Virus genome (UHGV): UHGV-0119843
Length of the DNA stretch: 28,077 bases
Strand: one strand, 5' to 3'
Source of the DNA: a virus
A model generated the notes under the pieces. The model searched no databases, was not told the DNA's origin, and was given only the letters and a program-made list of their open reading frames with translations. Below are positions 1 through 23,626 of the stretch, in pieces. Position 1 is the stretch's first letter. The number at the start of each line of letters is the position of its first letter. A program made the translations under genes and the position numbers.

Positions 1-98
1 CCTAGCTATGATATGCTTGTCGAATGATATTCGTTCCTCTACATAATCCTGCGCGACCTTATGATTTCACGAATTTTTTGTTTAATGGGACCAACAGC

Positions 99-953
99 AT
101 GAAGATTATCACATTGTTTTTCCTACTTTTATTTTCATTTACTTCATCAAATGCTAAGGAGGTTCGCAATATGATAATAATTTGCTGGGGTGACTCATTA
201 ACGTATGGGGTTGGTTCACAAAGTGGCAACAGCTATCCTGATCTTCTCAGAAAAAATGGTTACGACGTGATAAAAAAGGGGTATCCCGGACAATCTTCAA
301 GCGATATAGCGATGAGGCAAGGGGGCTATTCTCCAATAATCAAAACATTACTTATATCGACTGGCGTTTATAAAGTTACATCTATGGAGCCATCAGGTGA
401 CTTCCGTAAATATAAAGAGATGAGTTTCTATGGGACATTGGAAGGAAAGCCTGTCATCCTATCTCGAGGAGTCGATGGGTCATGGTCAGTTAACTCCTCG
501 ACAGATATAAACTGTGGAAGTGGATGCCGATTTATTACAAAAGAGGGTTCAGAGGCTAAGGATGCTGTAAACATTATTTGGGTTGGCAGAAATAATAATC
601 TCGCATTTCCTCGGTTCGCCGAGAGAGATATTGATTTGATTGTAACTTCTCTTCCCAGAGGGAATAGATTCATTATCGTCGGAATAACGCCATCAAGAAC
701 TGACTCAGAAGAAAACATTAAGGCAATAAAAACTATTAATTCCAGACTAAGCATGCGTTATGGGTCAAGATTCATCGATATGTGGCGTATTCTTAGCTCC
801 GAAGGTATCAAACTTGCAGGAATTTCCCCTTCTCAAGATGACAAAGATGCGTCATCAAATGGGTTAATTCCCCCATCTTTATACAGTGATGGGATACATT
901 TTAATGACAATGGGTATAAAGCAATATCTCTGATTATAGAAAGATATATTTAA
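99..953 (+). CDS. Secreted SGNH/GDSL-family hydrolase (esterase/lipase-like), probable prophage cargo gene
   Basis: GDSL block I motif CWGDSLTYG near N-terminus, GRNNN block and C-terminal DGIHFN (Dxx H block V); signal-peptide-like MKIITLFFLLLFSFTSSNA from ATG 99; alternative ATG 171 preceded by AAGGAGG (156-162); visibly AT-rich relative to neighbouring phage genes. Confidence 0.6.
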   Translation: MKIITLFFLLLFSFTSSNAKEVRNMIIICWGDSLTYGVGSQSGNSYPDLLRKNGYDVIKKGYPGQSSSDIAMRQGGYSPIIKTLLISTGVYKVTSMEPSGDFRKYKEMSFYGTLEGKPVILSRGVDGSWSVNSSTDINCGSGCRFITKEGSEAKDAVNIIWVGRNNNLAFPRFAERDIDLIVTSLPRGNRFIIVGITPSRTDSEENIKAIKTINSRLSMRYGSRFIDMWRILSSEGIKLAGISPSQDDKDASSNGLIPPSLYSDGIHFNDNGYKAISLIIERYI

Positions 954-979: not shown

Positions 980-3193
980 TTAAAGAATGCTTGTAATTAC
1001 TCCAGATATAGAGAATTTAGTAGTTTGCCCGCCCGCGTCCTCGCCGCGGCATGTGACAGATGCCCTAGATGCTGTAGCGCCAAACAGTACATCAACACCT
1101 GTTGTGGCGTTGTACTGAGGGTAGCTATTCACAAGAGAAACAGTGTCAATTGATTGATTGGTCATGTCTGTAGACGCCCTTCCAACTCGCTTCAATATTC
1201 CTGGAACAACGCCTGATTGTCTACGGCAAACAATGTTTAAATCGAATATATATCCGTCATAACCAAAAGCAGATGGTACAAGAGCAAGGCGAAGTGCATC
1301 AGCTGCTGCTGCGCCGGCTGCCAGTTCGAAATATAAACCGGTAAACTCCATACGAGCAAAGTTTTTATCAGTTAATGTTGTATCGTACGTTCTTGATACA
1401 AAGAGAGATGACAATGAAAATGCACCATTTAATGTGATTTTGTTTTGCGCCCTTGTGCTTTGGTGGATCTTAATATCAGGACAGTTGTACAGGTCAAAGC
1501 TTGTATTTACTGCACCAGCCTTATCAAAGACGTTAACTTGAATGGAGAAGTTAGTGTTGTTGTCATGGATAGAAATTGTTGATGCTCTGTCAGCATAATC
1601 TACCTGAACGGTGGGATTAGATTGAATTATGCTGCAACCATGCACTTCAACGCCCATGACAAGTCCTGTTATGAAAACCTTAGATTGCTCAGCATATAAT
1701 CCGTGTATTTCAGTGCCACTACTATTACCTACATATATAATTCCAACCTCGACTGTACCTGAGAGCTCAGTTCCATACACCTGAAGATATGCTGCTCCCC
1801 CCATAGTATGGGCATAAACCAGAGCAGAGTCGAGGGTCAATGTATTTCCTGAAATTGCAGTTATGTATTTAGCTTCAAGAGTTCCACCCTCAATTGCAAT
1901 AACGTCAAATATTGAAAGCCCAGCTGCTGATGTTACTTGTATAGTGGTATCGCCAGCCGAAGCGGCAGCGGAAAGAGTTGTTCTTGGGCCATGAATAGAT
2001 ACAGAAATCTGTTTATCATTGGATCCTCCTATATATCCCTTAAGCTTGGCAGCATTGTTCCTTACCCTTACCGAATTTTTGGTAACGGTAGTTCCATTAG
2101 TTCTTCCTTGCGTGTGGCCATGCCAATTACAAACAAGCCCGCAGATATCTACATTAGAAAGCCTATGCCCTACAGATTTATATGACAGGTCAGCATAGTG
2201 AGCAGTAGATACAGTTCTTGAAGATGCTGAATCACCCTTGTTAGCTATATCACCATCGATAAGAAAACCTCCTACGCTTTGGTAGAAATGCTCACGGTCT
2301 TTCGTTCTATCCCTAGGGTCGATTCCAATGTGATGCATAGATATCCCGGTTGTTGTGGAGATCAGGGTTGTTAAGTCCCAACCGGCGCCGCCAAAGGAAA
2401 AGTAGCGCTTATCAACATCGAGGGTAAATGCACCAATACTATACTTCCCTGCCGGGAATGACAGACTACGTACATTTTCCTGCGCACGAGCAACGCGGTT
2501 CCCCTCATCAACTGCAGCTACGTTTTCAACATCAGTGCCGCCGAACTCGAATGATGCATAGTTCATGTCAGGGAAACATACCAGATTGGCGTATTTACCT
2601 GCGGGCAACGTCAGGCTAAAAGTATTCAGATCCTGATTGGAGGAAATAACCCATTCTGATACGTTTTTTACTCCTTTCCCGTTCACGTACGTTCTGACGT
2701 GCATTCCATCTGGTACGCCACTAAAGTCTGTTTCCAGTAACTGTGTTACAGTTTCTATAGTGTAAATACGTCGAGACAAGGCGTTAGCAACGGTAGCGTC
2801 TAATGGGTCACCAACAAGAATTGATCCTGTACTCTCTCCGAGTCTTTGCTCAAGGCGATCAGGGTCATACTTCAGCACATTAGGAAAATAGAACTGCTGC
2901 GAACCATACGCATCATAAACAGCCATAGAATGGCCTTGCACGGTAACGAATTTGGCAATCTGTCCGTTATGTACCGGATATCCAGCAGCGTTAATGATTA
3001 TTGGTTGCGAAACAGGGACGTGAGAACCGTCTTCGTTCTCTACATAAACCTGAATCTGGTTTTCAGGATTTACTGGGTCAGTGTCAATTTTTCCGATATA
3101 AATTTTGCCATTGGCTACGGCTTTAAAAGAACGCGCCATAGTGAAGAGTTGCGAAGGCATGCTTACCACAACATTGGCTGTAATGTCTGTCAT
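980..3193 (-). CDS. Tailspike protein (P22 gene 9 family) with conserved N-terminal head-binding domain and divergent receptor-binding domain
   Basis: 737-aa ORF; N-terminal ~110 aa ([11 protein letters not shown]...[31 protein letters not shown]...[15 protein letters not shown]...NVLKYDPD) matches the P22 tailspike head-binding domain from memory; remainder not P22-like; ATG at 3193 with GGAG upstream. Confidence 0.9.
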
Positions 3194-3250
3194 TTAATTT
3201 GCTCCAGATACAAGGAATCGCCGCAGCGTGGCCACGGTGAATTTTGGGCA

Positions 3251-3275
3251 TAAAAAAACCCAGCCGAAGCTGGGT
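3251..3275 (-). terminator. Rho-independent terminator downstream of ant
   Basis: Hairpin ACCCAGC-CGAA-GCTGGGT (3258-3275) followed on the minus strand by a 7-nt U-run (plus-strand A-run 3252-3258). Confidence 0.6.
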
Positions 3276-3293
3276 CGTTGCGTTGGTTATCTG

Positions 3294-4172
3294 TCAGTAG
3301 TTATGTACTGAAGGAGGTAATTCTTTATTCTTAAGTCTCATCCATGCGGAAAGATTCGTTGGTCCGTCTGGCTCATTGATATCAACATCTCGTGTGTGGT
3401 TTATTAAAACGTCTCTCGCCATTCCAATAACATACGAGAACTCATGACCGTAGTCGTAGCATCTGCCGGAATAGTTCGATTGAATTTGTTTTAATGCCGG
3501 ATACAGTTCGCTGAATAATGCCTGTGAACGGTTAGCATAATCCCATAGCCATACAAGGCTGTTTGCTTCTTTTGCAGAAAGCTCGTTGGTTTTCTTCTCT
3601 TGTTTGCCAATGAACTCACCTTCAAGCACTACCCTGTGGATGTACTCTACGGCCAGCGGGATTTGTTCAATTGAAAGTTCATCAATGCTGTCAATACCAA
3701 AACGCTGATGAACCATATTGTATGCATCGTCATAGCGAAGTCCTTTCTTTCCTACCAGCATGTTTACTGCATCGCGTAGCGGTGTTCTTTCCTCAACAGT
3801 GGTTTTCTTTCCTTTTACATACTCGCCATGTTTGCGAATTGAAGGCAGAACTTCTGCTGTTACCCACTTGCGGAATTTGTGCGGGACTGAACCTTTATTG
3901 ACTGCATCGCGGCAGCGCAGAACCAATGTATACATACCTGATTCGCTCACAATGCTTAGATTCTGCTCACCACCAAGGGTGTAACTTAAAGTTACTCCCT
4001 TTTCATCGTCATCAAGTGCAGTAAGCGCCTTGCGTGAGTTAGTCAAATCTAAAGCATCACAAACATCTTTAGCTACAAACCACGGCTCACCGCACTTGTT
4101 GATGACGCGGATTTCACTGTCGCCGAATTTGAAGATGGTGAAATCGTTTTGTGCCTTTGCTATACTTTTCAT
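3294..4172 (-). CDS. ant: Antirepressor Ant (BRO-N domain N-terminus)
   Basis: 292-aa ORF directly downstream of arc on the same strand; N-terminus contains the BRO-N/AntA hallmark ...[16 protein letters not shown]...; position matches P22 immI arc-ant operon. Confidence 0.8.
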
Positions 4173-4242
4173 GTCAATATTTCCTAATCCGATTTGTTGA
4201 TGCCGAAGCCCTGACTGTTACAGCAGTTGGGGCTTCAACTTT
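4173..4242 (+). ncRNA. sar: Candidate sar-like antisense RNA (antisense to ant RBS/arc-ant spacer)
   Basis: Plus-strand extended -10 TGcTATACT at 4158-4166 inside the ant 5' end, followed ~70 nt later by hairpin GAAGCCC...GGGCTTC (4205-4236) and AACUUUA; size matches the ~69-nt P22 sar RNA; boundaries inferred, not verified. Confidence 0.35.
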
Positions 4243-4402
4243 ACGCACCAATGCGCCCTTCCTTCTTAAAGCTTTCCATTACTCGCTGATAAATCTCAGA
4301 ATTAACAGACCGACCATTTTCTTCCGCCACCTTGCGTACCAAATCCAAAACTTCTTTAGGCCACCGCAAATTGAACTGTGGCATTTTGCTCATTCCTTTC
4401 AT
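4241..4402 (-). CDS. arc: Arc repressor (ribbon-helix-helix)
   Basis: 53-aa product MKGMSKMPQFNLRWPKEVLDLVRKVAEENGRSVNSEIYQRVMESFKKEGRIGA is essentially the P22 Arc sequence; ATG at 4402 with GAGGTG SD; the ORF-track N-terminal extension runs into the operator and is not used. Confidence 0.95.
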   Translation of the reverse strand: MKGMSKMPQFNLRWPKEVLDLVRKVAEENGRSVNSEIYQRVMESFKKEGRIGA

Positions 4403-4418
4403 GTTCACCTCACAATAT

Positions 4419-4435
4419 AGGTCCACGGTGGACCT
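4419..4435. promoter_or_regulatory. Mnt operator (Omnt), perfect 17-bp dyad AGGTCCACGGTGGACCT
   Basis: Exact palindrome read in sequence; matches the P22 Mnt operator as recalled; positioned at the predicted Pant transcription start. Confidence 0.8.
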
Positions 4436-4470
4436 ATTGAGAATATAGTAGAGTGCTTCTATCATGTCAA
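4436..4470 (-). promoter_or_regulatory. Pant-like promoter (-35 TTGACA at 4470-4465, 17-bp spacer, -10 TATATT at 4447-4442) driving arc-ant
   Basis: Consensus -35 and 5/6 -10 on minus strand with 17-bp spacing; Arc operator lies between/over the hexamers and Omnt at the start site, as in P22 immI. Confidence 0.5.
4445..4465. promoter_or_regulatory. Arc operator (Oarc), 21 bp ATGATAGAAGCACTCTACTAT (read on minus strand)
   Basis: Plus-strand ATAGTAGAGTGCTTCTATCAT is the reverse complement of the P22 arc operator sequence as recalled. Confidence 0.8.
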
Positions 4471-4492
4471 TACACTAACTTGGAGTGATGGC

Positions 4493-4744
4493 ATGGCTAG
4501 AGATGATCCGCACTTTAACTTCCGTATGCCTATGGAAGTAAGGGAGAAATTAAAATTCAGGGCGGGGGCGAATGGGAGATCAATGAACTCCGAGTTGTTA
4601 CAAATCGTCCAAGATGCTCTATCAAAACCATCGCCTGTGACTGGATATCGCGACGATGCAGAACGACTCGCTGATGAGCAGTCAGAGCTTGTTAAGAAGA
4701 TGGTGTTTGATACGCTGAAGGATTTGTACAAAAAACCCACCTGA
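4493..4744 (+). CDS. mnt: Mnt repressor (maintenance of lysogeny; represses Pant)
   Basis: 83-aa product MARDDPHFNFRMPMEVREKLKFRA.ANGRSMNSELLQIVQDALSKPSPVTGYR.DAERLADEQSELVKKMVFDTLKDLYKK.T matches P22 Mnt; GGAG 7 nt upstream of ATG 4493; divergent from arc. Confidence 0.95.
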   Translation: MARDDPHFNFRMPMEVREKLKFRAGANGRSMNSELLQIVQDALSKPSPVTGYRDDAERLADEQSELVKKMVFDTLKDLYKKPT

Positions 4745-4751
4745 AGGTGGG
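4736..4751. terminator. Bidirectional terminator hairpin between convergent mnt and lipoprotein gene
   Basis: CCCACC-TGAA-GGTGGG stem-loop (mnt stop codon in the loop) flanked by A-run 4730-4735 and U-rich TCCTATTTATT 4752-4762. Confidence 0.65.
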
Positions 4752-4760
4752 TCCTATTTA

Positions 4761-5180
4761 TTAGTCTTGCTTTGTTGATGGTATAAGAGATGCGTTTGCC
4801 TCTTTTGGCTTCAAGGTATACATCCCACCATTAAAAGGATCTACAGCAAGCCAACCAATTAACCCACCAAACACAAGGTTTCCACCAATATACCAACCAT
4901 TAGCATTGGCTTTGATTGGCAGGGTAACTGGTTCGTACCCATCCTTTTCCATAGTGATCTGGTAGCTCTTTTTGCCAAAATAACTACCATCTGACTTGGC
5001 AAGAGTTACTCCTTGCGGGGTCTTGCCTTGCGCAACAATCACGCCTGATTCGTCTTTTACTTTAAAGCTCGCACCGGAAGGATTGCTGTTCACTTGCACG
5101 AGCTGTGTTTCGTCACCAACAATAGTTGCGCACCCAGATAACAATATAGCGCCAGCAACAACGCCGATAATCCTCTTCAT
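4761..5180 (-). CDS. Lipoprotein with PEGA-like beta domain and C-terminal glycine-rich hydrophobic segment; occupies the sieA position (candidate superinfection-exclusion/cargo protein)
   Basis: Signal peptide plus lipobox MKRIIGVVAGAILLSGC from ATG 5180; NPSGASF...GKTPQG...EKDGYEP pattern resembles PEGA domains; GWYIGGNLVFGGLIGWL glycine-zipper-like tail; function inferred from locus only. Confidence 0.6.
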   Translation of the reverse strand: MKRIIGVVAGAILLSGCATIVGDETQLVQVNSNPSGASFKVKDESGVIVAQGKTPQGVTLAKSDGSYFGKKSYQITMEKDGYEPVTLPIKANANGWYIGGNLVFGGLIGWLAVDPFNGGMYTLKPKEANASLIPSTKQD

Positions 5181-5298
5181 ATCAATTTCCATATTTGAAA
5201 AAACCGGAAACATCCTAATGACAAACCATTCAAATGTGAAGTAGGCAAAAGATGTTTACTTTTTTCATGGTATCCTGCTCAAAACTAAGGAGGTTGGT

Positions 5299-5622
5299 GT
5301 GTATACAACAGTTATCGTGATAGCTATCGCACTCATTGTGGTTCAGTACCAACTGGCATCTTTAAAACAAAAGATATCTGACCTCAAGACTGAGAACGAA
5401 GCACTTAAAAACTCAATAAAAGATGAGAAGAACAAACTATCATTCACTATATCTGATGTTGAGCAATCCATTGAAATTATTGAGAATAATATTAACAGAC
5501 TAAAAAAAGAAGATATTCATGAAATCAATGACAATATCAAGGATTTGAAATCTTGGCTTAGGAATGTAGGACAAATCGCCACATCAACACGAGATAAGCT
5601 CAATCCATCCATGGATGATTAA
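5299..5622 (+). CDS. Small single-pass membrane protein with long coiled-coil (hypothetical; moron in the sieA-position locus)
   Basis: 107-aa ORF with GTG start 5 nt after AAGGAGG (5287-5293); N-terminal hydrophobic helix YTTVIVIAIALIVVQY then heptad-like K/E/N-rich segment; very AT-rich; stop codon abuts gp16 stop. Confidence 0.55.
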   Translation: MYTTVIVIAIALIVVQYQLASLKQKISDLKTENEALKNSIKDEKNKLSFTISDVEQSIEIIENNINRLKKEDIHEINDNIKDLKSWLRNVGQIATSTRDKLNPSMDD

Positions 5623-7734
5623 TTACTCCTGTGCTATTCCGCTTAGCGACGCTACAATGCCAGCCCTCGCTAAGCGATTGAACTCTTCGTTTCCAACTGC
5701 ATCACGTATTGCTTTTACGGCGGCTTTATTTGCCATAAATCTGCGTTCCGCCGCCGCTAATGCTTCTTTACTTCCGCCAGCTCTTACTGCTTTCGTGGCT
5801 TCCTGAACTGCTTTCTCTATCGCATATCTGCCGCTACGCGTGGTGGCAATTTTAGATACAGCACCTTTTAACCCGGCGCCAACTAAAGCACCTGCGGCAG
5901 CGCCTGCAATGCCCCCTCCTGCTCCACCAACAATGGCACCTGATGTTGAGTTGGCAATTGCATTTAACACTGTTGATGTGACGTTGGATAAACCGGCATC
6001 CAGATCGCGTAGTACATTGGCAGTTCTCCCTGTTCTTTCAATATACTGCTGAGGTTTCACTGCTGCTCTTGCAAGAGTGCCATATGCATCAGCAATTCTT
6101 CCGAGTTCTGAGGAATATCTGCTAATGGCTTTTACATTTTGTGGGGTAAGTATCCCTGCGATATGGTTAATTCCTGCTGCATCAGCTTTGCCACCACGTA
6201 CACCATGCGAGATAGCATCTTGCAACATTGATGATATAGCAGGAACACGCTCTGATTCTGGCAGCGCGCGGATCATAGAATGGAACCCAGCAGGACCATT
6301 AAGACCTTTAGCTGACGATGATTGAAGGGATTTTACTCCATTCGTAATCAGTGCATCTGTTGCCAAATCACGCCCGAAAACAGACTCTGCACTCTCTTGT
6401 GCTGATAACCTCGCTTTAGACAGATCATTAGCTTTCTGCCAGTCATCAAGAAATCCGCCGTTTTCCGCCATTGTGCGCATATCATCAGTAATTGCCCGGC
6501 GTATTTCCCCTGCTCTCCTTGCCGCATTTGCCTCTCCGCTACGCTTATATTTTTGCTCCGCATCAGCAAATTTCGCTCTCCATGCTTTCATGCCATCAAA
6601 TGTTACTCCACCTTGATTGTTTGCCTGAACAAACTGTTTCATTTCAGGAGTAAGCGGTATGCCAGCAGATCGCTCTGCCTGAATAACGGCATTACCATTT
6701 AGCATTCTTGCTTTTTGATTTGGCATTGTTGACCGCACGTCATCCCATGCCGCGCGCTCGGCATCCTTCATCTGATCAAGATTTTGAAGAATCCTTTGTT
6801 TTATAGCCGCACTTTTTTCTGATGCCGTTCCAGATGCGGCCCCAAATTCATCAAGGTTTCGACTTAACTTTGATGATATTTCGTTAAATGCTGCCTGATG
6901 GGCGTCCTGAACAATTCCTGGCGTTGATGCCAATGCGCCTTCGGCTTGTGCAATTCCACGACTTCCAGATCGCATTCCTGGTGTTAATGCGTTTATATCA
7001 ATTCCAGCAGACTCAGCCGCTTTTGCTACATCTTCGGACACATTAGCGGCCTGACTGGCAATTGACTGACGCCCAGCACCTGACTTTGCCATCCTGGAAA
7101 CATCATTAGCAGAATTCAGTGCTGCACCACCAAGAGCCTGTGAAACCCTTGGCGCAATAACGCGCCCGACACCTGAAAGAACGCCTTGAGCACCAATATT
7201 GATACCACCGTTAATGGCAGCATTTTGTGCAAAGTCTCCCTCCTGATTTGCAGCATCAGCAAGAGAACCTGCAATCATGTTTCCTGCGGAACCGATATCT
7301 CCAGCGAGCTTTGCTGGCGCACCAGCAGCTTTTGCCGCTGTGCCAATTGGCAGGAGATACCCACCAATTGTTTCACCGGCTTGCGCATAAGGGTCTGTCG
7401 GTCGATCGACTGGACGATAGACATCATCCAAAACCTTTGGGCCACCAAGCCCCTGGCTGATTGCATTAATCAGACTTGCGCCACCCTGCAATACGTCAAA
7501 TGGTATGTTTACCAGACCACGACCAGCCTGTTCTGCAATTTGCCCTGCGCTTTGACCACCAGTGAGCCAGTCAGTGGCTTTTCCTACCAGAGATTGTTCT
7601 TCTGGCTGCGATTGGTTTTGAGTGGATTGATCACCAGAAGACAGCATCTGAGCAATGCGACGTGCTCCTTCTGTATCGCCTGCCGCATCAGCGTTCCTTA
7701 ATGCTGTCATCAACTGTTCACGACTATAGGCCAT
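5623..7734 (-). CDS. Ejection/DNA-transfer protein gp16 (P22 gene 16 family)
   Basis: ~700-aa Gly/Ala-rich ORF in the position of P22 gene 16 after gp20; ATG at 7734 overlaps gp20 stop (ATGA); ORF-track GTG one codon upstream. Confidence 0.85.
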
Positions 7735-9008
7735 CACTGCCCTCCGAGATATTTATTAATCAGGTCATCATCAGAAAGCTGCTGTTGAGACGGTTGTATG
7801 TCCTTCCCGTATTTCTGTTGCATACGTTTCTGAGCCATCTCAGTGGTTTTTATGATTGTTTTGATAGCTGCTCTGGCTGATTTTTCAGACTGATTTGGGG
7901 ACAAACTACCAATAGCATCCATTACCTTTTGCCCCTCGGCATTACTTAAAGCCCCCATCCCTTTCATCTGCTGAATGCCAGATAAGAATCCCTGAGATTT
8001 CAGTGTGTCAACCAGAGTTTCTGTATCAGCAGCCTCTGTTCCTGGAATGAATCTACTCGATAGTGGGTTTAGGTTTGTTCCGAAATATCCCGTGAATCCT
8101 GGGCTATTAAGAACTTTTGTAGCCGTCTCTATCGTTCTGGAGAGATTATCCATTCCAGAGTTGTACGCATCGGCCTTATCTCGCTTTGCCTGCTCCATAG
8201 CTTGCTGATTCTGCAATCTCTTGTCCTGCAATTCAGCAAGTTTTAAGGCATTAGTTTCATTTGCGATGAGTCTGTCGTATTTCTTGTCCTCTAATTCCAT
8301 CCGACGAAGATTGACATTTTGTTGCGCAATATTGTTGCTTGCCCACCCTCTGGCATTTGTCATGTCATTATTACGGATTGTTTCGTTAATTCTTTGCTGC
8401 TCCTGCTGGCGACCAACCATCTTATCCTGATAATCCAGCATTTTATCCGGACCAACAGCCCCTAGCGTCATAGTAGTCAGCATGTGTGATAGCTGCTCTG
8501 GATTCTGAATACCTGTCTGAATCATCCAGTCAGCATTCGCCCCCACGCGATTTAACCTGTCCTTGTTGTCAGTAATGAATTTACTGTAGGCTTCCGGTCC
8601 CTGAGAAAGAGCGACGTTAGCCCTCATGGCTAAATCGCCCATATCGTTGCGTTGCTGCTCATTAAGACCGGAAAACGCCTGTTGTGCCTGTGCAACAAAC
8701 GCTGGATTTTCCTGGGCAAACTTAAATAGTCCCGATGGATCACCAGAAGCCCATGCATCAGCGTGAACCTTATTGAACGCACTAATAGCTTTCTGTTGCT
8801 GTTCCTGATTGTAAATATCAGCAACTCCAGCCAGACCACGTAACGCGGTCTGGCCAACGTTATTTACACCTGAGCGAGCCAGTTCATTGTTTTCGCGGAT
8901 CAGACCAAGCGTTGCGTTAATGTCGCTTGCCTTTGGCGCATTCTCATTTTGCGTACCGATGCCAGCCAGAAAACCACCAGAATTAATACCCTGTTGCCAC
9001 GTAGCCAT
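7734..9008 (-). CDS. Ejection protein gp20 (P22 gene 20 family)
   Basis: 424-aa ORF, N-terminus [18 protein letters not shown]..., conserved order 7-20-16. Confidence 0.85.
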
Positions 9009-21899: not shown

Positions 21900-22361
21900 T
21901 CATCGAAGGCATTGCGTCCTGATGTATTCCTGCAGGTAGTTAACCTGCGCGGTTATCCTGTCGATTCCACTTCGGAGACGGTAATAATTGAGTTCAGCAT
22001 CTGCTGTAAGTCCTGGGCTTTCTCCATCGCCCATGCTGCTGGCTCCGGTCGTTGACTTTGCACAGGTGGCGGCGACTTGCAGGCGCTTACGCCCAGCAGA
22101 AACATCAGCACGGAGGCTTTCGATAGTCGCGTTAGCATCAGCAAGCTCCTTTGTGTATCTGGCGTCGAGTTCTGCTACATCACGTTGACGCTTCTGCATA
22201 TCAGAGATCGTCGCCATAGCCGAATCTAATGCCATAGCGTTTTCGTCGCGCTGTTTTTTGTATTCAATGGCTTTATTGTGGTAATGATTAGCTGACCAGA
22301 CAAGACCACCAGCGACACAAGCAATAAACGTTAAAATGAGCGCCCAATAACTCATCTTCAT
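21900..22361 (-). CDS. i-spanin Rz
   Basis: 153 aa (same as lambda Rz); N-terminal TM helix, ...NHYH.KAI.YK.QRDENA...ATI.DMQ.RQRDVAELDA.YTKELADA... matches lambda Rz; start overlaps endolysin stop (ATGA). Confidence 0.9.
   Translation of the reverse strand: MKMSYWALILTFIACVAGGLVWSANHYHNKAIEYKKQRDENAMALDSAMATISDMQKRQRDVAELDARYTKELADANATIESLRADVSAGRKRLQVAATCAKSTTGASSMGDGESPGLTADAELNYYRLRSGIDRITAQVNYLQEYIRTQCLR
21953..22138 (-). CDS. o-spanin Rz1 (embedded in Rz, +1 frame)
   Basis: ATG 22138 with AAGGAG 7 nt upstream; lipobox-like LLGVSAC followed by Pro-rich KSPPPVQSQRPEP, as in lambda Rz1. Confidence 0.7.
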   Translation of the reverse strand: MLTRLSKASVLMFLLGVSACKSPPPVQSQRPEPAAWAMEKAQDLQQMLNSIITVSEVESTG

Positions 22362-22972
22362 ACCAGCAGCGCCGCCCGCGCCTTGTTGTATCGGACCTTA
22401 CGATCCTCAATACCGTTCAAACCGCCGTTAATGATGCGCGTAACACGGTTAATATCGGCACCGTAGATCATGCAACCTTTAGAGGTGTAGAACCATGCAG
22501 CTGAGCGCGCAGCCTGTAGTTCCTGTTCCAGTTGTTCAGGTGAAGTCACCAGATCTAACTTCAGCGCCGCGCCACAGATGCGATAATTATGGAGGCCAGT
22601 GATTTGAATTAATCCTCTACCACGATATTTCCAGCCATCACCTGGTGCTTTGTTACCCAGTCGGTTGCTATACACCAGATTGGCAATAGCATCCTGACGA
22701 GCTGCATGTCCGGATGTTCTGCCAAGGGCATCAGCCTGCTGCTGTGTGATCCTCTTTCCGAACGTCGCCACAAGCGCAGATGGTGTGTAGTTAAGATTTT
22801 CAACTACGGCGCTAAACCCCATCGACTCATGGCCTACCTGAGCGATAAACATTGCCTGATCCGCTGGTGCTGTAATGCCGAATTCCTTCATCGCCGCATC
22901 AATGTGCGGAAACCAGCGCGCAGCCAGCCCGGCGCTAATACCAGCCGCCTTTTGAAATAATTGTTGGTTCAT
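22358..22972 (-). CDS. Endolysin, glycoside hydrolase family 19-like (chitinase-type lysozyme)
   Basis: 204-aa ORF between membrane proteins and Rz; motifs ...FIAQVGHESMGF...NRLGN...GDGWKYRGRGLIQITG..NY... typical of GH19-type phage endolysins. Confidence 0.8.
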   Translation of the reverse strand: MNQQLFQKAAGISAGLAARWFPHIDAAMKEFGITAPADQAMFIAQVGHESMGFSAVVENLNYTPSALVATFGKRITQQQADALGRTSGHAARQDAIANLVYSNRLGNKAPGDGWKYRGRGLIQITGLHNYRICGAALKLDLVTSPEQLEQELQAARSAAWFYTSKGCMIYGADINRVTRIINGGLNGIEDRKVRYNKARAALLV

Positions 22973-23253
22973 TAGTGCCTCAGATGATCAACCAGACGTG
23001 CAACGTTGCCTCTGACAGCCACCAGCACGGAAAGAAAAATAGTGTTCGCCACGATAATGGGCCATGAGGAATGGGGATAAATCCCACAGAGATAGGCCAA
23101 CGGAACAGCACTGTATGTAACAGTAATCAGCCAGGCTAAACGTGAAACCCAAGGACGATGCCGCGAATCACCACGACGATAAAACATCAGAGTAATAACA
23201 ACACAAGCACATAACAGCGCATTTATAGTTGCTGTCGGGTCATTTAGCTCCAC
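22972..23253 (-). CDS. Small membrane protein, putative holin/antiholin partner
   Basis: 93-aa ORF with 2-3 predicted TM segments; GTG start preceded by GGGGAGG inside the 3' end of the upstream membrane-protein gene; stop overlaps endolysin start. Confidence 0.5.
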   Translation of the reverse strand: MELNDPTATINALLCACVVITLMFYRRGDSRHRPWVSRLAWLITVTYSAVPLAYLCGIYPHSSWPIIVANTIFLSVLVAVRGNVARLVDHLRH

Positions 23254-23626
23254 CTGAACCTCCCCGGCGCGTTATGAGCGCCACCAGGGAGCCGATATCC
23301 TGATTATTCAGGAACGTCAGGATTTTAACGGCTAAAGCAGAGACGATTACGGCACCAATAGCATCCAGAGGTTTATCACTGTATCCGGTCAAGTTCGCCA
23401 GCTTGGAGCCAACCAACCCAGAGCAAAGAATCCCGGCAATATATGACACGATAAAATATGCCAGTCGGCGCGATGCACTCAGATCTGCAGCTGTTGCTAT
23501 GTAGAATACAGCCCCTGCAAATGCGCCAAATACAACGCCGTAATCAGTTCCGGTCAGCAGTCCATAAACACTGGCACCCGTCAGGGCACCACCAGCCAGC
23601 CCAGTACCGGAAATCGGATCGGACAT
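23240..23626 (-). CDS. Putative holin (multi-TM small membrane protein, first gene of lysis cassette)
   Basis: 128-aa Gly/Ala-rich hydrophobic protein with several TM segments and charged C-terminus; GAGGGGG SD before ATG 23626. Confidence 0.55.
   Translation of the reverse strand: MSDPISGTGLAGGALTGASVYGLLTGTDYGVVFGAFAGAVFYIATAADLSASRRLAYFIVSYIAGILCSGLVGSKLANLTGYSDKPLDAIGAVIVSALAVKILTFLNNQDIGSLVALITRRGGSGGAK

What the first reader, a model, noticed from the sequence alone, without database searches (positions are those of the whole stretch)
4761..5622. Variable locus in the sieA position: divergent lipoprotein and small membrane coiled-coil protein, candidate exclusion/defence module
Between gene 16 and mnt, where P22 carries sieA, this prophage has two unrelated AT-rich genes transcribed divergently from a ~120-bp spacer. 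One is a lipoprotein (lipobox LLSGC, PEGA-like beta domain, glycine-zipper tail). The other is a 107-aa single-pass membrane protein with a long coiled coil, started by GTG after a perfect AAGGAGG. Its stop codon abuts the gp16 stop with no spacer (TAA/TTA at 5620-5625), so late transcription must run antisense into it. Neither protein resembles SieA as far as I can recall. Composition and position suggest a horizontally acquired envelope-acting cargo, possibly superinfection exclusion or abortive infection.
Basis: partly seen in the sequence, partly recalled or inferred. Interest (0 to 1): 0.7.

Follow-up and report, generated by a model that had tools for sequence, protein, structure and literature searches.

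The report
Two independent prophage envelope-protein morons
Between the DNA-injection gene and the immunity genes of this P22-like prophage lie two separately mobile add-on genes of untested function, already catalogued in phage epsilon34; one is a small membrane protein in the expression slot of P22's exclusion gene sieA, the other an outer-membrane lipoprotein that lysogens transcribe.

Summary
The described sequence features are real. The locus is not new: it is 97.4% identical to genes 14 (hkcB homologue) and 15 of Salmonella phage epsilon34, inside the published hypervariable 'ant moron' of P22-like phages. Both genes are listed there as function unknown.

The two genes are not a cassette. 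Of 360 complete E. coli genomes with either gene, only 10 have both contiguous.

HkcB (107 aa) has one N-terminal membrane helix, a long helix and a conserved C-tail. It is confined to P22-like prophages and always abuts gene 16 stop-to-stop. It occurs only beside the long (~700 aa) gp16 type. It starts at the same GTG, behind the same ribosome-binding site and proximal leader (48/50 nt), as P22 sieA. That 35-nt element precedes at least five unrelated ORFs.

The lipoprotein has its own promoter-like site and terminator. It belongs to a large uncharacterised family (>5,000 clusters). Relatives occupy the HK97 gene-15 exclusion-moron slot in siphovirus prophages. An identical copy in E. coli LF82 is transcribed about 40-130-fold above neighbouring late genes in most tested conditions.

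Superinfection exclusion is the best-supported function for HkcB and possible for the lipoprotein. Neither has been tested.

The parts
4729..4752 (-). Intrinsic terminator shared by the converging mnt and lipoprotein genes. The stem is ACCCACC/GGTGGGT. On the - strand it is followed by a run of T.
   Evidence: Read from the sequence. The scan reports the hairpin at 4735-4752. The epsilon34 record annotates the homologous site as a Rho-independent terminator on the lipoprotein strand.
4761..5180 (-). Lipoprotein gene (139 aa plus stop), the homologue of epsilon34 gene 15. It encodes a signal peptide, lipobox LSGC (Cys17, Ala at +2), a beta-sandwich at residues 22-94, the Gly-zipper/VDPFNGGMY motif at 94-125 and a short tail.
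   Evidence: phrog_6823 E 8e-86. 97.8-100% identical to proteins of epsilon34, Gally and vB_EcoP-720R6. 728 homologues and 5,081 cluster representatives. Alignment A1. AF2 model.
5212..5240 (-). Sigma-70-like promoter of the lipoprotein gene: -35 TTCACA, 17-nt spacer, -10 TAGGAT. It overlaps the upstream in-frame ATG at 5213, which argues against that start.
   Evidence: Scan. In the LF82/Gally version (TTCACG, 17 nt, TAAGAT) both hexamers and the spacing are kept while the spacer has diverged (A3). The LF82 gene is transcribed autonomously.
5252..5301 (+). Proximal leader shared with P22 sieA. It contains -10-like TTTCAT (5263-5268), the extended -10-like TGGTATCCT (5268-5276), Shine-Dalgarno AAGGAGG (5287-5293) and the GTG start (5299-5301).
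   Evidence: 48/50 nt identical to the sequence ending at the P22 sieA start codon. The 35-nt core also precedes hkcB in HK620 and SEN22 and unrelated ORFs in L018, L021 and L026. 214 E. coli genomes carry it. Promoter activity is inferred, not shown.
5299..5622 (+). hkcB-family gene (107 aa), the homologue of epsilon34 gene 14. It encodes an N-terminal transmembrane helix (about residues 2-20), a long helix and the conserved C-tail WLxNVGxIATSTRDKxNPSxDx. It is transcribed antisense to the late operon.
   Evidence: phrog_5962 E 3e-58. 98% identical to the epsilon34 protein and 55% to HK620 HkcB. 41 clusters, all Enterobacteriaceae. AF2 models a single helix. dN/dS about 0.29, lowest in the TM helix and the tail.
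5623..7737 (-). Context: gene 16 homologue of the long CUS-3/HK620/epsilon34 type (704 aa), an ejection (DNA-transfer) protein. Its stop codon abuts the hkcB stop.
   Evidence: phrog_770 E 3e-217. 94% identical to CUS-3 gp16, 72% to HK620 gp16 and 31-38% to P22 gp16. The C-terminal tail type tracks hkcB presence.
4174..4744 (.). Context: the immI control region, with sar RNA (4174-4240, +), arc (about 4241-4402, -), divergent Pant/Pmnt promoter-like sites (4414-4470) and mnt (4493-4744, +).
   Evidence: Rfam sar E 7.6e-13. Pfam Arc and Repressor_Mnt. Promoter scan. epsilon34 annotation.

Best explanation
The region holds two separate morons, meaning independently transcribed add-on genes, inside the known hypervariable 'ant moron' of P22-like phages.

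(1) hkcB sits in the sieA slot. It is convergent with gene 16 and antisense to the late operon. It begins at the same GTG, behind the same Shine-Dalgarno and proximal leader, as P22 sieA. Its product is anchored in the inner membrane by an N-terminal helix. The flanking charges favour a cytoplasmic coiled coil and C-tail. I infer that the prophage makes it. I also infer that, like the unrelated SieA, it interferes with the membrane step of DNA delivery by incoming P22-like phages of the long-gp16 type to which it is always linked.

(2) The lipoprotein gene is a classical moron with its own promoter-like site, ORF and terminator. It was captured from a very large bacterial lipoprotein family. 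Ala at +2 suggests sorting to the outer membrane. Lysogens transcribe it. It most likely changes the envelope of the lysogen, either by blocking a phage entry step or by conferring a host-environment fitness trait.

Shown: gene reality, independence of the two genes, identity of the slot and leader, linkage to the gp16 type, and transcription of the identical lipoprotein gene in a lysogen. Inferred: topology, localisation, hkcB expression and any exclusion activity.
For: Known locus: 97.4% identical to epsilon34 genes 13-17. It is described as an 'ant moron' of unknown function in PMC2629481.

Independence:
- Only 10 of 360 E. coli genomes with either gene have both contiguous.
- In L015 the lipoprotein is 99% identical but HkcB 60%.
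- hkcB occurs alone in CUS-3, SEN22, UTI89 and HK620. The lipoprotein occurs alone in Gally, LF82 and CFSAN004176.
- hkcB is cleanly deleted in L024.

sieA slot:
- The 35-nt element ends at the P22 sieA start codon, with 48/50 identity.
- HK620 hkcB carries the whole P22 PsieA upstream region.
- 85 bp upstream of sieA sufficed for >10^7-fold exclusion from a single copy (PMC10883804).
- The same element precedes five cargo types, four of them membrane proteins.

gp16 linkage:
- 9 of 9 hkcB loci have the long gp16 tail.
- 154 of 155 hkcB-positive E. coli genomes have it contiguous.
- In the listed rows for about 330 genomes with the P22-type tail, only SieA or unnamed proteins lay beside it.

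Protein-level constraint: dN/dS 0.29, with about 0.06 in the TM helix and about 0.1 in the tail.

Lipoprotein:
- Promoter hexamers are conserved across a diverged spacer, and a terminator is present.
- Homologues lie in the HK97 gene-15 slot between the tail chaperone and tape-measure genes, and in the I/J slot. One has its own terminator.
- HK97 gp15 is a proven exclusion protein (PMC3594210).
- The identical gene in LF82 reads log2(fpkm+5) 9.4-11.0 in four of five conditions, against 3.6-4.2 for the gp16 gene.
Against: - No experiment has tested either protein against any phage.
- PADLOC, Pfam and NCBIfam give only coiled-coil or signal-peptide noise.
- The -35 half of PsieA is not conserved in this window: the distal 38 nt are unrelated. 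No hkcB terminator was found.
- hkcB expression data are lacking.
- The gp16 linkage could be plain physical linkage, because there is no spacer between the genes.
- One cargo behind the same element is a soluble 140-aa protein, so the slot is not restricted to envelope proteins.
- The lipoprotein family also has ordinary chromosomal members. Its induction in DMEM and macrophages fits a host-adaptation role as well as exclusion.
- In overnight LB the Gally gene did not pass the authors' moron threshold.
Confidence: 0.55

Rival explanations
1. One reading: the lipoprotein and the membrane coiled-coil protein form one two-gene exclusion or abortive-infection cassette that works as a pair.
For: They are divergently arranged around a 118-bp spacer here, in epsilon34 and in 10 E. 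coli genomes. An outer-membrane lipoprotein plus an inner-membrane coiled-coil protein could in principle bridge the envelope. In a Leclercia prophage hkcB again sits divergent to a lipoprotein-like gene, though an unrelated one.
Against: Co-occurrence is the exception, at 10 of 360 genomes. The two genes have different evolutionary histories in L015, 99% against 60% identity. Each is found with many other partners, and the lipoprotein family also occurs in siphovirus prophages and chromosomes that lack hkcB. The hkcB family has 41 clusters, the lipoprotein family more than 5,000.
Confidence: 0.06
2. The lipoprotein is a lysogenic-conversion or host-fitness factor rather than an anti-phage factor. 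Possible roles are envelope stress tolerance, serum or macrophage survival, or adhesion, in the manner of lambda Bor or Lom. HkcB may or may not be an exclusion protein.
For: The identical gene in LF82 is low in overnight LB and 10-100-fold higher in DMEM and inside macrophages. The family is mainly bacterial, with chromosomal copies. One member is fused to an OmpA-type barrel. No similarity to Cor beyond the signal peptide. Llp was not compared.
Against: In phages it sits repeatedly beside DNA-delivery genes (gene 16, the tape-measure gene, J), including the slot of the proven exclusion moron HK97 gene 15. LF82 cured of Gally was not reported to show a macrophage phenotype linked to this gene (text only).
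Confidence: 0.3
3. HkcB serves the phage's own cycle rather than exclusion. Examples are tuning gene 16 or late transcription through convergent antisense transcription, or acting with the resident gp16 type during injection or lysis.
For: The zero-spacer tail-to-tail junction with gene 16 is invariant, and hkcB is found only with one gp16 type. The 3' ends of both genes form the most conserved island at the nucleotide level, 5584-5763. P22 sieA itself is upregulated on induction (PMC10883804).
Against: hkcB is dispensable. Prophages with the same gp16 type lack it or carry other cargo (L024-L026), and roughly 130 E. coli genomes show a gp16-tail match without it. Selection acts on the protein, since synonymous changes accumulate in the conserved tail. 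The hairpin after the stop codon is not maintained.
Confidence: 0.1
4. The pair is a second spanin-like system: an inner-membrane coiled-coil i-spanin plus an outer-membrane lipoprotein o-spanin.
For: There are weak PHROG hits of HkcB to Rz-like spanins (E 1e-3 to 4e-2). The architecture is superficially similar.
Against: The prophage has its own holin, endolysin and Rz (phrog_13, E 2e-68) at 21900-23626. The two genes are divergent, lie outside the lysis cassette and are inherited separately. HkcB has no basic N-terminus and the flanking charges favour N-out/C-in, the opposite of Rz (the comparison with Rz rests on general knowledge). The lipoprotein is a 120-residue folded beta-sandwich, unlike short Rz1 proteins.
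Confidence: 0.02

Closest known systems
Salmonella phage epsilon34 genes 14 and 15, and HK620/CUS-3 hkcB (the 'ant moron' of P22-like phages; Villafane et al. 2008; Clark et al. 2001)
   Same: These are the same genes in the same order. The DNA is 97.4% identical to epsilon34 over 4400-5900. HkcB is 98% identical to epsilon34 gp14 and 55% to HK620 HkcB. The lipoprotein is 97.8% identical to epsilon34 gp15.
   Different: Nothing structural differs. This copy is a prophage whose closest match is an E. coli chromosome (99.6-99.8%). The published record lists both genes as function unknown.
P22 SieA (superinfection exclusion protein A, types A-C; Leavitt et al. 2024)
   Same: hkcB occupies the same slot: convergent with gene 16 and antisense to the late operon. 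It has the same proximal leader, Shine-Dalgarno and GTG (48/50 nt). Both products are predicted inner-membrane proteins.
   Different: There is no sequence similarity (E 0.05). HkcB has one TM helix plus a coiled coil, against the three predicted TM domains of P22 SieA. It lacks the FxRYPxEAxxFNK motif. It is linked to the long gp16 type rather than the P22 type. Its function is untested.
HK97 gp15 moron (inner-membrane exclusion protein derived from the YebO family; Cumby et al. 2012)
   Same: Homologues of the lipoprotein (68-71% identical) occupy the very slot of HK97 gene 15, between the tail chaperone and tape-measure genes, and carry their own terminator. Both are bacterial envelope-protein families captured as phage morons.
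   Different: The proteins are unrelated (no BLASTP alignment). One is a lipoprotein with a beta-sandwich, the other a 62-aa membrane peptide. No exclusion data exist for the lipoprotein.
Lipoprotein exclusion factors Cor (phi80/N15), Llp (T5) and Ltp (TP-J34)
   Same: All are small prophage- or phage-encoded lipoproteins that act at the envelope. Cor and the present family sit among tail genes.
   Different: The only match is to the Cor signal peptide (phrog_1119, E 0.0039, residues 12-31). Llp and Ltp were not compared by sequence. The fold is a generic transthyretin/PEGA-like sandwich. The target is unknown. The resemblance to Llp and Ltp rests on general knowledge only.
Lambda Bor and Lom (prophage-expressed outer-membrane morons for host fitness)
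   Same: All are prophage-expressed envelope proteins located in or near late operons. In LF82, Bor of the Perceval prophage is likewise induced in DMEM.
   Different: No relationship to Bor or Lom has been established; neither was compared directly. Function is unknown.

Membership tests
SieA family (P22 SieA types A, B, C) | Detectable sequence similarity to SieA and the conserved motif FxRYPxEAxxFNK | tested here: not met
   BLASTP against P22 SieA gives E 0.048 for HkcB and E 0.037 for the lipoprotein. The motif is absent from both and present in SieA at residue 145.
SieA family (P22 SieA types A, B, C) | Multi-pass inner-membrane protein of about 160-200 aa | tested here: not met
   HkcB is 107 aa with one hydrophobic helix at residues 4-20. 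The lipoprotein has a signal peptide and no strong TM helix. The SieA description comes from PMC10883804.
SieA family (P22 SieA types A, B, C) | Gene located between genes 16 and 9, convergent with gene 16, with its own promoter | tested here: met
   hkcB lies tail-to-tail with gene 16 and shares 48/50 nt of the sieA leader including the GTG. This defines the location, not homology.
SieA family (P22 SieA types A, B, C) | Blocks DNA injection by P22-like phages | not testable with these tools
   Requires plating and DNA-entry assays.
HkcB family (phrog_5962) | Full-length profile match, about 107-109 aa, N-terminal TM helix and conserved C-tail | tested here: met
   phrog_5962 E 3.3e-58 over residues 1-107. 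Alignment A2. 55% identical to HK620 HkcB.
HkcB family (phrog_5962) | Position abutting the 3' end of gene 16 in a P22-like (pro)phage | tested here: met
   Stop-to-stop with zero spacer here and in L001, L002, L003, L014, L015, L017, L020 and L023.
epsilon34 gp15 lipoprotein family (phrog_6823) | Full-length profile match with invariant lipobox Cys and the NGWY...VDPFNGGMY motif | tested here: met
   phrog_6823 E 8.1e-86 over residues 12-150 of the long ORF. Invariant columns in A1.
Bacterial lipoprotein (Lgt/LspA/Lnt pathway, Lol sorting) | Signal peptide ending in the lipobox [LVI][ASTVI][GAS]C | tested here: met
   LSGC with Cys17. Ala at +2 suggests outer-membrane sorting; this is an inference from the E. 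coli +2 rule.
Bacterial lipoprotein (Lgt/LspA/Lnt pathway, Lol sorting) | Actual lipidation and membrane localisation | not testable with these tools
   Needs globomycin or palmitate labelling and cell fractionation.
PEGA domain (PF08308) | Score at or above the Pfam gathering threshold | tested here: not met
Moron (Juhala/Hendrix definition) | Insertion between genes that are adjacent in related phages | tested here: met
   The region between genes 16 and 9 is absent in Sf6 and APSE and variable elsewhere (PMC2629481). Contents vary across the loci examined.
Moron (Juhala/Hendrix definition) | Own promoter and terminator | tested here: inconclusive
   Lipoprotein: a promoter-like site with conserved hexamers plus a terminator. 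hkcB: a proximal PsieA-like leader but an unconserved -35 region and no convincing terminator.
Moron (Juhala/Hendrix definition) | Transcribed from the repressed prophage | tested here: inconclusive
   Met for the identical lipoprotein gene of Gally in LF82, from published RNA-seq (S1 Table of PMC9928086). No data exist for hkcB or for this particular prophage.
Two-component spanin (Rz/Rz1) | Adjacent, overlapping or embedded gene pair in the lysis cassette, inherited together | tested here: not met
   The genes are divergent, lie in the ant moron and are inherited separately. A bona fide Rz lies at 21900-22361 next to the endolysin and holin.
Known anti-phage defence systems (PADLOC-DB v2) | Significant match to a defence-protein model | tested here: not met
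   Lipoprotein: no hits. HkcB: only coiled-coil matches to fragments of JetC, LmuB and PbeC, E >= 4e-4.

The most novel reading that the evidence does not exclude
The position next to gene 16 is a plug-and-play exclusion-gene site. A conserved 35-50-nt adaptor (proximal PsieA leader, Shine-Dalgarno and GTG) drives interchangeable small proteins, mostly membrane proteins. These are SieA, HkcB, a 109-aa HkcB-like variant, a 62-aa two-TM peptide and a 140-aa soluble protein.

HkcB would be a structurally new analogue of SieA. Its conserved C-tail would be matched to the long type of ejection protein gp16, so that it blocks DNA delivery by that phage lineage.

Separately, the lipoprotein family would be a widespread Gram-negative counterpart of injection-blocking lipoproteins, recruited next to the DNA-delivery genes of both podo- and siphoviruses.
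Probability: 0.3. Interest if true: 0.65.

Novelty: new member of a known kind. Interest (0 to 1): 0.4.

Why it matters
How temperate phages exclude relatives at the DNA-injection step is understood for very few proteins, such as SieA and HK97 gp15. If HkcB is a second, unrelated occupant of the sieA slot with specificity for another gp16 type, it would give a natural pair of inhibitors for dissecting how the P22-type ejection proteins cross the inner membrane. The conserved leader would then be a simple handle for mining further exclusion genes in hundreds of prophages.

The lipoprotein belongs to a family of more than 5,000 clusters with no known function. It is strongly transcribed by an adherent-invasive E. 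coli lysogen in DMEM and in macrophages, so any phenotype would annotate a large family.

If neither protein has a phenotype, the locus remains an ordinary, already catalogued moron region.

Tried and rejected
- Family scans of both proteins (Pfam, NCBIfam, PADLOC) gave only a sub-threshold PEGA hit and coiled-coil or signal-peptide noise.
- PDB sequence search with both profiles found nothing meaningful.
- The afdb50 fold library was unavailable.
- The AF2 model of HkcB is a single helix and was not worth a fold search.
- A strong hairpin just after the hkcB stop (5640-5677, region z-score -2.95) looked like a terminator or stabiliser. In HK620 and SEN22 its 3' arm carries one-sided, pair-breaking changes, so I rejected it.
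- The terminator-like site at 5829-5848 lies in a poorly conserved stretch.
- The divergent neighbour of hkcB in Leclercia might have been a lipoprotein homologue, which would have argued for a pair. It is unrelated.
- The spanin idea was rejected after finding the resident lysis cassette.
- Literature searches by gene name, accession and 'ant moron' found no functional study of either gene.
- A 2026 preprint on the P22 translocation channel could not be opened.
Full report
**What is there.** The window is a P22-like (Lederbergvirus) prophage with its late operon on the minus strand. The gene order is:
- tailspike 980-3193 (-)
- ant 3294-4172 (-)
- sar RNA 4174-4240 (+)
- arc, about 4241-4402 (-)
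- mnt 4493-4744 (+)
- a lipoprotein ORF 4761-5213 (-)
- a 107-aa ORF 5299-5622 (+)
- the gene 16 homologue 5623-7737 (-)
- gene 20 homologue 7734-9008 (-)

Every sequence detail in the finding checks out except one.
- The lipoprotein really starts at ATG 5180 and is 139 aa. The PHROG profile and all homologues begin there, and the upstream ATG at 5213 lies inside the -10 of the best promoter-like site.
- The lipobox is LSGC with Cys17.
- AAGGAGG lies at 5287-5293 and GTG at 5299.
- The two stop codons abut at 5620-5625.
- The exception is composition. Only hkcB (33.6% GC) and the spacer (33.9%) are AT-rich. The lipoprotein gene is 44.8% GC against 48.1% for the window.

**It is a known locus.**
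- Bases 4400-5900 are 97.4% identical to Salmonella phage epsilon34 and 99.6% identical to an E. coli chromosome.
- The 107-aa gene is epsilon34 gene 14, a homologue of hkcB of HK620 and CUS-3. The lipoprotein is epsilon34 gene 15.
- Villafane et al. 2008 (PMC2629481) described this stretch between genes 16 and 9 as the hypervariable 'ant moron'. They found ten types in sixteen genomes and listed both genes as function unknown.
- I found no later functional work on either gene.

**Not a cassette.**
- Among 5,426 complete E. coli genomes, 360 match some part of 4761-5622. Only 10 carry both genes contiguously.
- hkcB-like DNA is in 155 genomes.
- hkcB occurs without the lipoprotein in CUS-3, UTI89, SEN22, HK620 and two other prophages.
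- The lipoprotein occurs without hkcB in phage Gally/LF82, vB_EcoP-720R6, CFSAN004176 and others.
- In one Salmonella prophage the lipoprotein is 99% identical to ours while HkcB is only 60% identical, so a recombination joint lies between them.
- In strain EC21Z-014, hkcB has been deleted, leaving its last ~35 nt beside gene 16.

**HkcB.**
- The family is small, with 41 clusters at 90% identity. Members are 101-111 aa apart from truncated or 5'-extended gene calls. Named sources are E. coli, Salmonella, Klebsiella, Citrobacter and Leclercia.
- Every locus inspected is a P22-like prophage.
- AF2 models one helix from residue 2 to 101.
- The hydrophobic helix (about residues 2-20) has no basic residue before it and two to four Lys/Arg in the 15 residues after it, in all members. 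By the positive-inside rule the coiled coil and C-tail are more likely cytoplasmic. This is an inference, roughly 2:1.
- The gene is under purifying selection (dN/dS about 0.29 against a 60%-identical relative). Constraint is strongest on the TM helix (about 0.06) and on the C-tail WLxNVGxIATSTRDKxNPSxDx (about 0.1).
- Synonymous changes accumulate in the tail, so the constraint there acts on the protein.

**The slot.**
- The stop-to-stop junction with gene 16 is invariant.
- In all nine sampled loci HkcB sits beside the long (691-722 aa) CUS-3/HK620/epsilon34 type of gp16. That type ends in [10 protein letters not shown]...SLSG(I/M)(A/G)Q(E/D).
- The four sampled loci with P22-type or Gally-type gp16 lack HkcB.
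- In E. coli, 154 genomes have the hkcB 3' end contiguous with that tail. Roughly 130 more show a gp16-tail match without hkcB, some of them to more distant gp16-like genes.
- In the rows listed for about 330 genomes with the P22-type tail, the neighbour was SieA or an unnamed protein, apart from 17 genomes with a 109-aa variant.

**The shared leader.**
- The 35-nt sequence ATGGTATCCTGCnCAAAACTAAGGAGGTTGGnGTG, which ends in the hkcB start codon, also ends in the start codon of P22 sieA.
- Window 5252-5301 is 48/50 identical to the P22 sieA leader. HK620 hkcB carries the entire P22 upstream region.
- Leavitt et al. 2024 showed that sieA with 85 bp of upstream DNA, in single copy, excludes P22 more than 10^7-fold.
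- The same element precedes three further unrelated ORFs: a 109-aa protein with a TM helix and coiled coil that is distantly HkcB-like in its N-terminal half and lies beside P22-type gp16, a two-TM peptide of about 62 aa, and a soluble 140-aa protein.
- 214 E. coli genomes carry the element.
- hkcB is therefore a precise ORF replacement of sieA in one expression slot.
- Caveats: in this window the distal, -35-containing half of PsieA is not conserved, and I found no conserved terminator.

**The lipoprotein.**
- It has a promoter-like site, TTCACA-17-TAGGAT at 5240-5212. Both hexamers and the spacing are kept in the diverged LF82/Gally spacer.
- An intrinsic terminator is shared with mnt.
- The protein is a confident beta-sandwich (residues 22-94) of the transthyretin/PEGA/CnaB kind. 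It is followed by a nearly invariant, poorly modelled Gly-zipper and the VDPFNGGMY motif.
- The family is very large and uncharacterised: 728 close homologues and 5,081 representatives at 50% clustering. Ten sampled members gave no family-specific Pfam match, and one is fused to an OmpA barrel.
- Its genomic contexts are informative. In E. coli and Proteus, 68-71%-identical copies sit in lambdoid or HK97-like siphovirus prophages, mostly immediately upstream of the tape-measure gene. At least one has its own terminator.
- In another prophage a copy sits between tail genes I and J.
- These are the two moron slots of HK97. The first holds HK97 gene 15, a proven inner-membrane exclusion protein that blocks genome injection and was itself captured from a bacterial family (PMC3594210).
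- Chromosomal, non-phage copies also exist.

**Published expression data.** Phage Gally of E. coli LF82 carries a lipoprotein 100% identical to ours. In the S1 Table of Misson et al. 2023 its gene, GALLYPH_14, has these log2(fpkm+5) values (two replicates each):

| Condition | GALLYPH_14 |
|---|---|
| Overnight LB | 6.2 / 4.8 |
| DMEM (label B1) | 9.8 / 10.2 |
| DMEM (label B6) | 10.5 / 10.2 |
| Macrophages (label MB1) | 11.0 / 11.0 |
| Macrophages, 6 h post-infection (MB6) | 9.4 / 9.5 |

- The neighbouring gp16 gene stays at 3.6-4.2 in all conditions, and the C2 repressor reads 8.9-12.0.
- The gene is therefore transcribed on its own from a repressed prophage, about 40-130-fold above late genes outside overnight LB.
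- The authors' threshold, based on LB only, did not call it a moron.
- The gene in the slot next to gene 16 in Gally, a different lipoprotein, is also expressed.

**Interpretation.**
- The best-supported reading is two independent morons.
- HkcB is the better candidate for superinfection exclusion. The supporting points are slot identity with sieA, membrane anchoring, the strict association with one gp16 type, and a C-terminal half that differs in the variant found beside the other gp16 type.
- The lipoprotein is an envelope moron made by lysogens. Its placement beside DNA-delivery genes in two phage classes hints at exclusion, but its regulation fits a host-fitness role equally well.
- A spanin role is excluded by the resident holin, endolysin and Rz at 21900-23626.
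- Neither protein is a member of the SieA family.
- All functional statements are inference. Nothing here tests activity.

**Verdict.** The locus is already catalogued, so novelty lies only in the unassigned functions and in the shared sieA leader. Interest is moderate.

Noticed in passing
window 5267-5301; L022 (P22) 2829-2863: The conserved Shine-Dalgarno-to-GTG junction shared by sieA, hkcB and three other ORFs supports GTG (the 164-aa form) as the true start of P22 SieA. Leavitt et al. 2024 call that start codon uncertain.
   Followed up: partly
gene 16 homologues: L002 4661-6820 (CUS-3), L023 3280-5448 (HK620): My global alignment of the GenBank records gives 78% identity between the gp16 proteins of CUS-3 and HK620. 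PMC10883804 states they are only 26% identical. I could not resolve the discrepancy.
   Followed up: partly
window 4174-4240 (+): Full-length match to the Rfam sar antisense RNA (RF00262, 65.6 bits, E 7.6e-13). Together with arc, ant and mnt, this makes the immI control region look complete.
   Followed up: no
L020 2075-2494 (UTI89), L003 2039-2236 (SEN22), L026 1399-1947 (AZ146), L021 1389-2375 (AR_0118): The same moron region in other prophages carries toxin-like or defence-like cargo: a YafO-family toxin, a YcfA/HicA-like gene, a PIN-domain protein and a P63C-domain protein.
   Followed up: no
L023 2554-2919 (-) (HK620 hkcC): HkcC, the divergent neighbour of hkcB in HK620, which is said to have a homologue in P22, contains an HExxH motif (IAHECAHM). 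That suggests a small metallopeptidase-like protein.
   Followed up: no
L024 2441-2560 (E. coli EC21Z-014): A clean deletion of hkcB and part of the spacer leaves the last ~35 nt of hkcB beside gene 16 and the lipoprotein promoter intact. This shows that hkcB is dispensable for this prophage type.
   Followed up: partly
window 5584-5763: The 3' ends of hkcB and gene 16 form the most conserved nucleotide island between otherwise diverged loci (up to 100% in 30-nt windows against HK620), while the hkcB coiled-coil region drops to 36-60%. This may be a recombination boundary sequence.
   Followed up: partly
LF82 prophage Gally (PMC9928086 S1 Table); homologous to window about 980-5300: [quoted passage not shown] The cause is unknown. 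The lipoprotein and slot genes were missed as morons by an LB-only threshold.
   Followed up: partly
window 24-953 (+): A 309-aa ORF beyond the tailspike gene, on the opposite strand, matches tail-fibre-like PHROGs (phrog_11419, E 2.5e-25). Its role and whether it belongs to the prophage were not examined.
   Followed up: no
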